The position numbers are program-made. 64,000 bases of DNA. Source: Pseudomonadota bacterium (GTDB lineage: Bacteria > Desulfobacterota > Desulfobacteria > Desulfobacterales > RPRI01). Positions 6,001-9,000 of this stretch are shown here, piece by piece; position 1 is the first letter of the stretch, and every line of letters starts with the position of its first letter. The stretch is taken from positions 1 through 64,000 of the forward strand of contig JBDRRF010000041.1 in the NCBI GenBank assembly GCA_043825875.1. The letters run 5' to 3'.

Positions 6001-9000
6001 TACGGCCATGCTACGTCCTCAGGTTTTTGCCCTGCAGGAAGGAGAAGTACAGATAGGACTCATTTGCTCGGAAAAACAAGCTATAGACGCAACACTTCAA
6101 AGCCTTGCAGCCGAGGACAGCCGTTTCTGCCCGATTGCCGATAAATACTGGAATGCGCGCGGCGGAAGCGCCACCGACGGCGGATCATTTATTTTCACAG
6201 TAAAAGATAAGCAAAATGGTACCGGCGAAAAAGAACTTGTGTGCACCAACAAATTTGGGGAAACAGTCGAGATTCCGAAAGATAAAACATCCTGTGATAT
6301 GACTGTAGATATTTCATCTCATGCGGATGCAAAAGAAATTTCAAAAGAAATTGAAAATATTTTTTCAACAAAAGACGCTGCCGGTGCTGCCGCTTATGTG
6401 ATAGCAAATATCGCTTCCTGGGATTATGAAAAATTGAGAATTGCCTGCCATGAAATGGTTAAACTTGCAGGTTTAAATGATGATAACGCTTCAAAGGCAA
6501 TATATGTGTTAACCACACTAAATGATCAGCTTTATCCGGTTGGTATAAAGAAACGCAGTTGGGTGCTTAATATAATAAGAAATAACCTTACTCTTATTTT
6601 TAAAGCGGTAAAGAATTTGGATAGTAAAGATTCCGGCATTTACCGCCACATAGACTGGGATACCCGCTTATCAATTCGGGCACCCAAAGCTGAAGAGAAA
6701 ATCCTGATAATAAATGCAAGAGATTTCACGCCTGAAGGCGATGATTGTGATGCAAGGCTTATATGTGCGGCATATGAGCTTGGCTGGAAACAATTTATCT
6801 GCTACGGCTATAAGGGCCAGAGATTTACAGGATGCGGCTTGAGTGATGGCGCAGATGGTGTAAGAATTGATGTGTACGACAGCTCCGGCGACTATCTTGC
6901 TTCAGGAATAGATGGTCAGGAAATATATGTGCACGATAATGCCCAGGATCAATTGGGCCAGATTATGAAAAGAGGAAAGCTTGTTGTTTACGGTGATGTA
7001 GGACAAACTTTCATGTATGGAGCAAAAGGGGGAAATGTATTTGTTCGCGGCAATGCGGCAGGGCGTCCCCTTATAAACGCAGTAGGTTCCCCAAGGGTAG
7101 TAATTAACGGAACATGTCTGGATTACCTGGCAGAATCTTTCATGGCCGGTGACGCTTTAAACGGCGGAGGTTTTGTTATTATAAACGGTCTTGAGTTTGA
7201 TGAAGACGGAAATGCCAAAACATTGGAAAACCCTTATCCGGGTTCAAACCTGTTTTCTCTTGCATCCGGCGGAGCAATATATATCAGGGATCCTTTTAAT
7301 AACCTGGTAAATGAACAGCTAAACGGCGGTGAATATGTCGATCTTAGCCCTGCCGATTGGGATCTTATAAAGCCGTATCTGGAAGAAAATGAAAGGCTGT
7401 TCGGAATCTCTGTAGAAAATGATCTTCTTACTATAAACGGTGAAAGAAAAGACTATAGCAAAGTATTCCGCAAAGTCATGGCAGCAAAACTTGATGTACT
7501 CGCTATAGAATCTGTTGCCTCGGAAGAGTATGGCGTGGACTGGGATGAAGAATAGCAGATATTTGAGCCAGTTTCAAAACGCCCCATTTTAGCCGATCTC
7601 TGCGTTGGGCTCAAATTTCAATCCTCGAAATACTAAATGTATTCCTGTGGTTGAAATTTTCTCCCGCCTTGAGCTTGACCAAACTGAAACGTTTTGAAAG
7701 TGGCTCAAAGGGATGATATTTTCGCAAAAATTTATATATACGGTTGCCCCATTCAACAGGAGAAGACTCACTCGCGATCTTTTGCCGCTAAGAGCTTTAA
7801 TCCTTCTGTTTTTTCTAAAAAAAGCTGCATATGGGGATAGGGAATCTCGATACCCGCTTTGTCCAATGCCCGTTTGCCTTTTTCAGTATATTCCCACATA
7901 AGGGTATATTTCAAAAGAGAATCCTCTGTCCAGAAGCGTAGCTCCATATTCACGCTGCTGTCCCCCAGATTCTTAACCAACACCACGGGATCAGGATTGT
8001 CGAGTATTCGCTTGTCACCAGCCAATGTTTTAAGAAGTATTTCCCTGGCCTTTTCAGTGTCTTCTTTATAAGCAATGCCTATGGGTACGCGGATGCGTAT
8101 TTTCGGTGTTAAGGTATAGTTGACCACTCGTTCCTGAACCAATTGCTTATTCGGAACCACAACGGTTTCATTATCAAATGTGGTAAGAACTGTTGTCCTT
8201 AATCTAATTTCAGTAACTGTGGCATGCATATCCCCAATAGAGATCCAGTCTCCGTGTGAGAAGGGACGATCAATAATAATGGCAATTCCGGAAATCAAGT
8301 TTGCAATGGTGTCCTGGGCGGCAAAAGAAATTGCCAGGCCCGCGATACCAAAACCTGCAATCAAGGAAGTGACATTGATGCCCAACTGGTCGGCCACTGT
8401 AAGAAATGCAATCGCGAAAACCGCATACCTCAAAAAGCGGAGTATCAGGCTTTTCGCCTCGAGCGTTATTTTTGTTTTTGATAGGGCAGTGGAGACCATT
8501 CGCCGGAAAATCTTGTTAAGCACCCAAAACACCAAAACTAAAATTCCAGCGCCCAGGATATTCGGCAAGTAAGCGATAATTTGAGTTGAAAGAGATTCTA
8601 AATTCACGGATTGAAAAAAATGCTTTACCATATAACTAACTCCTTTCTGGTTACAAGCTATCTCAAAAAAAAGATCGCGTCCACTGACAAGGCGTGAGGT
8701 GATAAAAATACAGGCAGATAATAAGCTTTATATGATTATGAGTCAATTATCATTTACGAATAGTACAGGCTTATCAAAGGTTTTGCATCAAGCAAATATC
8801 CTGTGGGTTTGGTGAGATATCTTGAACAATCATTTTCTGTGGCGAGTTTTGTTTACAACCATGAACTTTAGGAGGTTAGGAGAAATTCAGATTAAAATTT
8901 GAAACCATTTAAAAGCAGATCTTCCTTTTTAAGTTATATCTGAAAATCCTATTGATTTAATTAAGGCGTACTGTTACCTAATTTTACGAATAGTTGCTCA

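What a model noticed while it worked through the whole genome (the two positions that open the first line are those of the whole stretch)
7564..7706. 142-nt hairpin repeat in ~300 copies, conserved across Desulfobacterales
The genome carries about 300 copies (248 near full length, median 96.5% identical to the consensus) of a 142-nt, mostly intergenic element. It folds end to end into one long imperfect hairpin (termini GAGCCAGTTTCAAAACG / CGTTTTGAAAGTGGCTC). Copies sit at 60 contig ends of 236, so the element is a main cause of the assembly breaks. The caller's 26-member family of ~42-aa 'proteins' (g00005 etc.) is a false ORF inside it. The same element, about 78-92% identical, occurs in 229 of 401 Desulfobacterales genomes searched (111 of 174 genera), with compensatory base changes that keep the hairpin. 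It is therefore a conserved structured element of the order (a MITE-like mobile hairpin or a structured [...]
Evidence so far: blastn of the consensus against the genome: 302 loci, 248 of >=130 nt; 295 of 314 full-length hits do not overlap a gene of >60 aa; 60 loci touch contig ends. RNAfold of the consensus: -53.5 (+) / -63.2 (-) kcal/mol, with the whole length paired. search_genomes with C41:7564-7706: 229 of 401 genomes of the order have a match, including 12 of 12 other genomes of the genus. RNAalifold on this copy plus 40 copies from 40 other genomes: 35 pairs, 15 with both-side (compensatory) changes, e.g. col 41/124 AU:24 GC:11, col 65/100 UA:30 CG:9, col 53/113 AU:28 GC:10. Rfam 15 scan (E<=1): only a chance miRNA-precursor hit of 24.5 bits against a gathering score of 117. 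No autonomous IS is bounded by th [...]
(Added by a program. Inside this text positions count along the whole contig: contig position 1 is position 1 of the stretch shown here. "Call 12" and the like, gene names such as g00115 and contig names such as C1 are that model's own, and its searches are not shown. The text may have been shortened before it was handed on; [...] marks where a part breaks off. The agent that wrote the report below was given it as the finding of a first reader that could run no searches.)

Follow-up and report, generated by a model that had tools for sequence, protein, structure and literature searches.

The report
Phylum-wide hairpin mini-transposon (MITE) family
This is a 142-base, hairpin-shaped hitch-hiking transposon with about 300 copies in this genome, and unusually its inner hairpin is kept across a whole bacterial phylum while its ends differ.

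Summary
I found 295 loci (251 of at least 130 nt, median identity 96.5%), 60 of 236 contig ends, and an end-to-end hairpin. Matches occur in 229 of 401 genomes of the order.

124 of 185 complete copies carry an exact 4-bp target-site duplication, against 3.1 expected. The target is weakly palindromic. Copies are present or absent between this genome and a congener that is about 92% identical. The element is therefore a recently active MITE, not a host RNA gene. Copies lie in intergenic DNA in proportion to space and show no bias in orientation.

The family reaches beyond the order: 39 genomes elsewhere in the phylum match. About 100 nt of hairpin core are conserved. Of 33 pairs, 20 show compensatory changes, and no shuffle out of 500 matched this. 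The termini fall into three classes with different duplication lengths:
- GAGCC type, 4 bp
- GAGAC type, 5 bp
- GTGYC type, 6 bp

I found no transposase with matching ends. I looked in this genome, in five near-complete relatives and in 80 flanks, and found no match in plasmids or viral contigs. The partner transposase and the reason the core is conserved remain open.

The parts
7565..7706 (+). The full 142-nt element, class 1 (GAGCC-type termini). It is 97% identical to the genome's consensus.
7565..7581 (+). Left terminal inverted repeat, 17 nt (GAGCCAGTTTCAAAACG).
   Evidence: Read directly. It pairs with 7690-7706 in every fold.
7690..7706 (+). Right terminal inverted repeat, 17 nt, complementary to the left one except at one position.
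7586..7685 (.). The conserved hairpin core, roughly element positions 22-121. This is the part that matches in other orders of the phylum.
   Evidence: Matches to query positions 12-131, 20-119 and 22-121 at 79-88% identity; alignment A2.
7620..7647 (.). Nearly invariant apex: 14 nt, a 5-nt loop, then 9 nt. The 4-bp apical stem is kept in 59 of 59 sequences.
   Evidence: The same motif found at least 116 stretches in the genome collection.
7707..7710 (.). Right-hand copy of the target-site duplication. It reads AAAG here; the empty site in a congener reads AACG.
7556..7564 (.). Left flank after a later deletion. About 110 nt of spacer and the left copy of the duplication, both present in congeners, are missing here.
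1..140 (-). Second copy in the window, cut by the contig end.
4898..7555 (+). Upstream 885-aa ORF. The element starts 9 nt after its stop codon.
7768..8631 (-). Convergent downstream ORF of 287 aa.

Best explanation
The element is a non-autonomous DNA transposon (a MITE) of 142 bp. It has 17-bp terminal inverted repeats and a body that is palindromic over its whole length.

Shown: it inserts with a 4-bp staggered cut, which leaves a 4-bp duplication. It prefers AT-rich intergenic targets of the form A-N-N-C-[4 bp]-G-N-N-T. It has moved since this genome split from a congener that is about 92% identical.

Inferred: it is cut and pasted by a DDE-type transposase made elsewhere (in trans). That enzyme binds the terminal repeats as a symmetric dimer. 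Its gene is not bounded by the same ends in any genome examined, and it may lie on contigs that this assembly dropped.

Shown: the element belongs to a superfamily found across the phylum. Its roughly 100-nt hairpin core and its length of about 142 nt are conserved, while the termini fall into three classes that make 4-, 5- and 6-bp duplications.

Inferred: the classes diverged together with related transposases. The core is kept because only copies that retain it can still be moved, which is selection on the element rather than on the host.
For: Target-site duplications: 124 of 185 complete internal copies have an exact 4-bp duplication and 32 more match at 3 of 4 positions. With flanks re-paired at random, 3.1 exact matches are expected.

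Target preference: A 0.73 four bases before the duplication, C 0.43 one base before, G 0.44 one base after, T 0.59 four bases after.

Filled versus empty sites against genome G322:
- A clean case reads TAAC|element|TAAC in G322 against a single TAAT here.
- Two near-clean cases run in the two opposite directions.
- One copy is shared at the same site in both genomes.
- The window copy's own site is empty in G143, where it reads AACG. It holds a truncated copy in G322.

Position: 236 of 251 copies do not overlap an ORF of at least 100 aa by more than 30 nt, in a genome that is 85% coding. Tandem, divergent and convergent spacers hold 101, 45 and 22 copies, against 442, 155 and 76 kb of spacer.

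Age of copies: they are young. Private substitutions run at 1.5% per site and do not avoid stems significantly (1.41 per paired site against 2.14 per unpaired site, p = 0.25).

Duplication length by class, over 77 distinct instances from other genomes:
- class 1: 21 of 33 exact 4 bp
- class 2: 10 of 15 exact 5 bp
- class 3: 9 of 13 exact 6 bp
- 16 instances unclassified

Hairpin: 95.2% of cells are paired and 20 of 33 pairs changed on both sides. No shuffle out of 500 reached this, and slid controls gave 7-12 pairs.
Against: No transposase with matching ends was found:
- No pair of terminal repeats 250-8000 bp apart encloses a transposase in this genome. The pairs at 987 and 1926 bp enclose an acetyltransferase-like gene and a histidine kinase.
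- No unit with GAG...CTC ends, a 4-bp duplication and good terminal repeats of 600-3500 bp is an insertion sequence.
- Eight DDE_Tnp_1 loci (IS4 twice, IS1182 twice, IS1634, a split IS5, an IS5 fragment and a pseudogene) have other ends.
- There are none among the places listed for five near-complete relatives; that listing was truncated.
- No transposase recurs in 80 flanks of 2.5 kb.

The window copy itself has no intact duplication (ATTT against AAAG). Flank deletions explain this.

In typical MITEs the ends are the conserved part. Here the core is better conserved than the ends, and the cut-and-paste model alone does not predict that.

Thirty-three percent of copies lack an exact duplication.
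Confidence: 0.85

Rival explanations
1. The core is a host-selected structured RNA or DNA module, for example a terminator or RNA stabiliser, a small RNA, or a protein-binding palindrome. Mobility would only be its means of spreading, and host benefit would explain its conservation across the phylum.
For: Compensatory changes keep six helices. Internal-loop and apex sequences are nearly invariant across 59 sequences, and one U-G pair is kept in 59 of 59. The length stays near 142 nt in all classes. Short contigs of one metatranscriptome lie on the core only, which could equally be DNA carry-over.
Against: There is no orientation bias relative to neighbouring genes (48 against 53). There is no preference among spacer classes beyond their size. 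Private substitutions do not spare stems significantly. No terminator-like T-run is present. No Rfam family matches. Copies come and go between close relatives.
Confidence: 0.1
2. It is a REPIN- or PATE-like single-strand hairpin element moved by a Y1 (HUH) transposase, of which this genome has many.
For: The long imperfect hairpin with conserved bulges is the kind of substrate HUH enzymes read. The genome has 13 Y1_Tnp matches, among them five paralogues of 320-338 aa.
Against: To my knowledge (recalled, not tested here) Y1 transposases insert without duplicating the target. Here variable 4-, 5- and 6-bp duplications are the rule. Intact Y1 genes lie 1.3-55 kb from the nearest copy, and one has no copy on its contig. 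Only two Y1 fragments lie within 135 nt of a copy.
Confidence: 0.03
3. The apparent compensatory changes are not due to selection. They come from template-switch (quasipalindrome) repair, which copies one arm onto the other. The core would then only look conserved because the family spread recently by horizontal transfer.
For: Long palindromes are prone to arm-to-arm correction (general knowledge, not tested here). Subfamily-defining changes within this genome come in pairs at positions 55 and 89 (35 and 32 of 104 copies). The classes are patchy within one genus.
Against: Unpaired loop sequences are as conserved as the stems, and arm-to-arm copying does not explain that. No copy was found in 72,556 plasmid records or in the viral contig collection. 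Identity falls from 94-99% in four congeners to 79-92% in other families and orders, as expected from long residence.
Confidence: 0.1

Closest known systems
ERIC / IRU elements of Enterobacteriaceae (about 127-bp MITEs; Delihas 2011, PMC3184786, passages read)
   Same: Both are intergenic imperfect palindromes of similar size with terminal inverted repeats and target duplications. Both are found across many genera, have no coding capacity and have no obvious partner insertion sequence.
   Different: ERIC-type elements are flanked by a TA motif (PMC3184786). Here the duplications are variable in sequence and 4-6 bp long, depending on the class of termini. Sequence relatedness was not tested, and Rfam holds no match. 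The range here covers several orders of another phylum.
bcr1 repeats of the Bacillus cereus group (PMC3184786, passage read)
   Same: Both are non-autonomous dispersed repeats with short direct duplications (5 bp for bcr1). In both, compensatory base changes keep a folded structure, and the distribution differs between close strains.
   Different: bcr1 folds into a cruciform-like shape with two stem-loops and is confined to one species group. This element is one long hairpin and is found across a phylum with three classes of ends.
Correia/NEMIS, RUP, Nezha and Chunjie MITEs (table in PMC3184786)
   Same: The anatomy is the same: terminal inverted repeats, a duplication and a stable fold. Mobility is shown the same way, by empty and filled sites in relatives.
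   Different: For several of these a partner insertion sequence with the same ends is known, for example ISNpu3 for Nezha. None was found here. In those families the ends are the conserved part, whereas here the core is. I did not compare sequences with Chunjie, which comes from Geobacter in the same phylum under the genome taxonomy used here.
REPIN-RAYT systems (PMC3116915 and bioRxiv 10.1101/2021.07.10.451892; search listings and abstracts only)
   Same: Both are hairpin-forming miniature elements in hundreds of copies that seem to persist in lineages for very long times.
   Different: REPINs are doublets of REP sequences moved by a single-copy Y1 transposase that they flank. To my knowledge (recalled) they make no target duplication. 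Here duplications are the rule and there is no linkage to a Y1 gene.

Membership tests
Bacterial MITE (non-autonomous DNA transposon) | Small size (under about 300 bp) with no transposase gene inside | tested here: met
   The element is 142 nt. Its longest internal ORFs are 30-38 aa.
Bacterial MITE (non-autonomous DNA transposon) | Terminal inverted repeats | tested here: met
   The ends are 17-nt repeats, complementary at 16 of 17 positions.
Bacterial MITE (non-autonomous DNA transposon) | Target-site duplication of fixed length and variable sequence | tested here: met
   124 of 185 copies have an exact 4-bp duplication, against 3.1 expected. At least 40 different tetramers occur among them.
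Bacterial MITE (non-autonomous DNA transposon) | Many dispersed copies, and insertion polymorphism between relatives | tested here: met
   There are 295 loci. Filled and empty sites are seen against G322 and G143.
Bacterial MITE (non-autonomous DNA transposon) | A partner autonomous insertion sequence with the same terminal repeats | tested here: not met
   None was found in this genome, among the listed places of five near-complete relatives or in 80 flanks. Caveat: the assembly has no contig under 2013 nt, so a collapsed multi-copy insertion sequence could have been dropped.
REPIN / RAYT system | Insertion without duplication, and a flanked single-copy Y1 transposase gene | tested here: not met
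   Duplications are present. Y1 genes are not next to copies.
Integron attC site (considered because this genome is rich in integron features, according to earlier notes) | R''/R' core sites (RYYYAAC ... GTTRRRY, recalled), location at cassette ends in arrays, and no duplication | tested here: not met
   The ends read GAGCC...GGCTC. The nearest GTT is followed by TTG, which does not fit RRR. Copies are dispersed singly and carry duplications.
Any Rfam 15 RNA family | A score at or above the family's gathering threshold | tested here: not met
   The best hit is MIR2670 at 24.5 bits against 117. CRISPR-DR45 scores 18.6 against 37.

The most novel reading that the evidence does not exclude
The roughly 100-nt hairpin core is an ancient replicator module, mostly inherited vertically, that has lived in this phylum since before its orders split. 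Selection would keep it as a structure-specific recognition or synapsis module, for a transposase or for a host DNA-binding protein. It would have been refitted with at least three sets of termini that serve transposases with different cutting staggers (4, 5 and 6 bp). That would make it a DDE-type counterpart of the REPIN-RAYT partnership, and a MITE whose cargo, rather than its ends, is the unit of selection.
Probability: 0.3. Interest if true: 0.75.

Novelty: new variant of a known kind. Interest (0 to 1): 0.55.

Why it matters
According to a census of 183,232 prokaryote genomes, 97.4% of MITEs are confined to one genus, and only 27 of 111,245 clusters span more than one order (PMC11602168; abstract and outline read, supplements not readable here). 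A family that reaches 111 of 174 sampled genera of one order and at least 39 genomes of other orders is therefore unusual, the more so because its core is better conserved than its ends.

It offers a way to ask how a non-autonomous element survives for very long times, and what a transposase or host factor reads in a conserved hairpin.

There is also a practical side. The element accounts for a quarter of the contig breaks in this assembly (60 of 236 ends) and seeds false small ORFs. It should be masked when such genomes are annotated.

Tried and rejected
**Search for the partner transposase**
- Terminal-repeat pairs at 250-8000 bp in this genome gave eight pairs. I checked the genes inside two of them (987 and 1926 bp), and neither holds a transposase. 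ORFs around two more (3974 and 5784 bp) were listed but not scanned against a family library.
- ORFs next to 15 half copies showed nothing transposase-like by eye. They were not scanned against a family library.
- Eleven ORFs on five small contigs that carry copies are ordinary genes.
- A generic scan for GAG...CTC units with a 4-bp duplication gave three hits, none of them an insertion sequence.
- Family searches of this genome: PF01609 gave 8 loci, all with other ends. PF13586, PF07592 and PF13546 gave no match. For PF07592 the control genomes did not respond either, so that blank says little. NF033593 gave nothing above its cut-off.
- A low-stringency blast of the element against the insertion-sequence loci found only neighbouring copies.
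I then listed single terminal-repeat sites in five near-complete genomes. That listing was truncated.

**Other collections**
- Plasmids: no match.
- Viral contigs: 0 matches to the apex motif.

**Expression**
- No RNA holder is listed for the locus.
- Contigs from one metatranscriptome run lie on the core only, at 85-95% likeness. DNA depth on the element is about 1000 times that of the flanks, so carry-over cannot be excluded.

**Promoter idea**
- Both terminal repeats carry an outward TTGAAA, kept at 329 of 370 ends.
- A -10-like hexamer at the right spacing occurs at only 69 of 370 ends, no more often than at other offsets.
- Class 2 ends lack the outward hexamer.

**Other motif ideas**
- I looked by eye for sigma-54 and IHF-like motifs and found none that fit.

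**Strand asymmetry of wobble pairs**
- The count is 6 against 4, which is not informative.

**Earlier notes of this scan**
- Nothing was found on this element by sequence.
- Leads to GIY-YIG-linked hairpins in other phyla were not pursued, because no such gene appeared in the flanks I examined.

**Literature**
- Four searches found no description of this family.
- The terms were: 'miniature inverted-repeat transposable' + Desulfobacter; MITE + sulfate-reducing + palindromic + repeat + intergenic; MITEs + Desulfo + target site duplication; and ERIC/Correia/REPIN terms.
- The supplement of PMC11602168, which may list MITE clusters for these taxa, could not be read.
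Full report

Yes. Window 7565-7706 is a 142-nt imperfect palindrome. 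As RNA it folds end to end:
- + strand: -46.9 kcal/mol, z -6.6
- - strand: -62.6 kcal/mol, z -8.8
- 0 of 200 shuffles did as well

As single-stranded DNA the values are -27.4 and -26.9.

blastn against the 118-contig, 4.77-Mb genome gives 295 non-overlapping loci. Of these, 251 are at least 130 nt, with median identity 96.48% and strands 129-/122+. Sixty of the 236 contig ends are touched. The window holds a second copy at 1-140, cut by the contig end.

Rfam gives only MIR2670 at 24.5 bits against a threshold of 117.

**2.

I lined up the 185 complete copies that have 40 nt of flank on both sides. The four bases before GAGCC equal the four bases after GGCTC in 124 of them, and 32 more match at three of four positions. 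When left and right flanks are re-paired at random, 3.1 exact matches are expected.

The duplicated tetramers are varied. TATT is the commonest, at 9 copies. They are therefore copies of target DNA and not part of the element.

The bases around them show a symmetric preference:
- A 0.73 four bases upstream of the duplication
- C 0.43 one base upstream
- G 0.44 one base downstream
- T 0.59 four bases downstream

A duplication of fixed length at a weakly palindromic target is what a transposase dimer making a 4-bp staggered cut leaves behind. That is an inference from general knowledge of DDE transposases.

**3. Mobility shown by comparison with relatives**

I compared two 19-kb stretches with their syntenic counterparts in congener G322. 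Blocks are 88-97% identical. The comparison shows copies gained or lost in both directions.

- Clean case. G322 has a 187-nt variant between two TAAC tetramers. This genome has a single TAAT and no element at that site.
- Two near-clean cases. One is TTAT|copy|TTAT here, against an empty site in G322 that differs by 6 nt. The other is CTTT|copy|CTTT in G322, against CTT here.
- One copy is shared at the same site in both genomes.
- Two segments in this genome are absent from G322. One is 2.2 kb with inverted copies at both ends. The other is 2.9 kb and begins with a copy.

**4. History of the copy in the finding**

The copy in the finding has no duplication: ATTT on the left against AAAG on the right. 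Comparison with relatives explains why.

- In G143, whose flank is 81% identical, the upstream gene is followed by about 110 nt of spacer with a GC-rich hairpin. The sequence then runs ...AACG GGATGATATTTT with no element.
- In G322, whose flank is 96% identical, the same spacer ends in AACG and is followed by the left 54 nt of the element and then a deletion.
- Here the spacer is gone, but the full element is followed by AAAG GGATGATATTTT.

The element therefore entered an AACG target in the common ancestor of this genome and G322. Later deletions removed one flank in each lineage. G184, G343 and G004 show no element after the gene.

**5. Where copies sit, and in what orientation**

I used a simple ORF-based gene set of my own: 3804 ORFs of at least 100 aa, 84.6% of the genome coding. 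Of the 251 copies:
- 15 overlap an ORF by more than 30 nt
- 68 lie at contig edges
- 101 lie in tandem spacers
- 45 lie in divergent spacers
- 22 lie in convergent spacers

Those three spacer classes hold 442, 155 and 76 kb respectively, so the copies follow the available space.

In tandem spacers the element points with the genes 48 times and against them 53 times. This is the pattern of a selfish insertion that survives wherever it does no harm. It is not the pattern of an RNA element with a job on one strand.

**6. Variation within the genome**

Among 104 copies without indels, most variation sits at about 14 subfamily-marking positions. These include the paired positions 55 and 89, changed in 35 and 32 copies.

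The remaining private substitutions amount to 1.5% per site. They hit paired sites at 1.41 per site and unpaired sites at 2.14 per site, which is not a significant difference (p = 0.25). Individual copies therefore seem to decay freely, although the test has little power at this low divergence.

Twenty-six copies of 164-165 nt and four of about 187 nt carry an insert after position 55. The ends of that insert resemble the terminal repeats of an IS4-family element elsewhere in this genome.

**7. The wider family**

Many matches in other genomes cover only the inner part of the query: positions 8-119, 12-131 or 20-119.

A sample of 401 genomes from the phylum gives 46 with a match at E of 1e-5 or better. 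Thirty-nine of them are labelled as outside the order.

Record titles are almost all Desulfobacterales, Desulfobacteraceae, Thermodesulfobacteriota, Syntrophobacterales, Syntrophaceae, Desulfatiglandaceae or Desulfarculia. A few labels on metagenome bins look odd.

Reading the ends of 77 distinct instances gives three classes:

| Class | Termini | Instances | Exact duplication |
|---|---|---|---|
| 1 | GAGCC-type | 33 | 4 bp in 21 |
| 2 | GAGAC-type | 15 | 5 bp in 10 |
| 3 | GTGYC-type | 13 | 6 bp in 9, mostly TANNTA-like |
| unclassified | – | 16 | – |

All three classes occur outside the order. All keep a length of 141-143 nt. The ends align position for position, so they look like diverged versions of one ancestor rather than unrelated captures.

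These loci were picked by best match or by the apex motif. They are not a random sample.

**8. The hairpin is maintained**

On 59 sequences that span the classes:
- 33 pairs in six helices are 95.2% paired.
- 20 pairs show changes on both sides, in 152 cells.
- No shuffle out of 500 reaches any of the five measures.
- Sliding the partners by 1-3 columns gives 7-12 such pairs and 18-57 cells.

The smaller set of 28 sequences gives 10 of 38 pairs.

Several unpaired stretches and the apex are just as conserved, and one U-G pair is kept in 59 of 59 sequences. Cells count sequences and not independent events, so the number of separate compensatory events is smaller than these figures suggest.

**9. 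The missing transposase**

I found no autonomous element with these ends.
- *In this genome.* No pair of terminal repeats 250-8000 bp apart encloses a transposase. A generic scan for GAG...CTC units with 4-bp duplications found none. The eight DDE_Tnp_1 loci have other ends.
- *In five near-complete relatives.* The listed terminal-repeat sites pair up only as miniature copies, or around ordinary genes. That listing was truncated.
- *In 80 named loci with 2.5-kb flanks.* The only genes recurring beside the element are metabolic ones: aldehyde ferredoxin oxidoreductase, aminotransferase and short-chain dehydrogenase.
- *In other collections.* Plasmid records and viral contigs gave nothing.

One caveat matters. 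This assembly has no contig shorter than 2013 nt. A multi-copy insertion sequence that collapsed into a short contig would have been dropped.

The genome also has 13 Y1-transposase matches. The intact genes are not next to copies, and to my knowledge Y1 enzymes do not duplicate their targets.

**10. Interpretation**

It is shown that this is a mobile, non-autonomous element that inserts with a duplication whose length depends on the class of termini. It is also shown that it was active recently in this genus.

It is inferred that a DDE-type transposase supplied in trans moves it.

Why the core is better conserved than the ends remains open. The reading I favour is selection at the level of the element: only copies that keep the hairpin and its loops are still moved, for example because the fold brings the two ends together or carries an inner binding site. 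A benefit to the host, or repair of one arm against the other, cannot be excluded. The rival explanations section sets these out with tests.

**11. Comparison with what is known**

In anatomy and behaviour this is a bacterial MITE. It meets four of the five defining features. The fifth, a partner insertion sequence, was not found.

The nearest described analogues are ERIC elements and the bcr1 repeats of Bacillus. Both are non-autonomous repeats with no stated partner, and for bcr1 the review reports compensatory changes that keep the fold (PMC3184786, passages read).

This element differs in its phylum-wide range, in having three classes of ends with their own duplication lengths around one core, and in the core being better conserved than the ends.

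Four literature searches found no description of it. A large census of prokaryote MITEs reports that 97.4% are confined to one genus (PMC11602168, abstract and outline). Its supplement, which could list these taxa, was not readable.

**12. Verdict**

The MITE reading is now well supported, and the structured-RNA reading is not. This is a new variant of a known kind and of moderate interest. The interest lies in the conserved core and the orphan status, not in the repeat as such.

Noticed in passing
G000 copies of 164-165 nt (26) and about 187 nt (4), for example L057 6880-7066: These length variants carry an insert of 22 or 45 nt after element position 55. The ends of the insert resemble the terminal repeats of an IS4-family element at G000 C33 (L050 1237-2613). 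This looks like the remnant of a second transposon that landed in the hairpin.
   Followed up: partly
G000 C75:3623-4603, C26:4983-5951, C79:72412-73419, C17:2370-3323 and C102:5590-6525: Five paralogues of 320-338 aa have an N-terminal Y1 (IS200-like) transposase domain and a C-terminal part that looks like a helix-turn-helix by eye. They are not next to copies of the element, and their role is unknown.
   Followed up: partly
L057 8784-11019 and 13508-16431 (G000 C38): A 2.2-kb segment encodes a 430-aa repeat-rich secreted-looking protein and has inverted copies of the element at both ends. A 2.9-kb segment begins with a copy and encodes a P-type-ATPase-like protein of 907 aa (function judged by eye). 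Both segments are absent from the syntenic region of G322. The element may mark or promote gain of accessory genes.
   Followed up: partly
window 7556-7564, compared with L208 and L205: Congeners have about 110 nt of spacer with a GC-rich hairpin and a T-run after the 885-aa gene. Here that spacer is deleted, and the element's hairpin sits 9 nt after the stop codon instead. Earlier notes on look-alike stretches call the gene part of a split glutamate-synthase module. I did not test that.
   Followed up: partly
L047 about 179-216 (G075 C2:3169978-3170015) and G075 C2:2721601-2721632: Mini-palindromes of 38 and 32 nt consist of the two terminal repeats alone. They are probably internal-deletion derivatives, though they could conceivably be ancestral hairpins.
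   Followed up: no
window 7549-7577 (- strand) and 7694-7722 (+ strand): Both terminal repeats carry an outward-facing TTGAAA hexamer 7 nt from the end, kept at 329 of 370 ends. AT-rich flanks supply a -10-like hexamer at the right spacing at 69 of 370 ends. Some copies may therefore create promoters that read into neighbouring genes.
   Followed up: partly
L116, L122, L126, L128 and L148: The apex motif also occurs on contigs of bins labelled Iainarchaeum, Polyangiales, Bacteroidales and Actinomycetota. The 'Iainarchaeum' contig carries an aldehyde ferredoxin oxidoreductase gene that clusters with one from a Syntrophaceae contig, which suggests mis-binning rather than transfer. The 83-kb Actinomycetota contig was not examined.
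   Followed up: partly
whole genome G000: The smallest contig is 2013 nt, so shorter contigs were evidently removed. Collapsed multi-copy insertion sequences would be lost this way, which limits every 'no transposase found' statement for this assembly.
   Followed up: no
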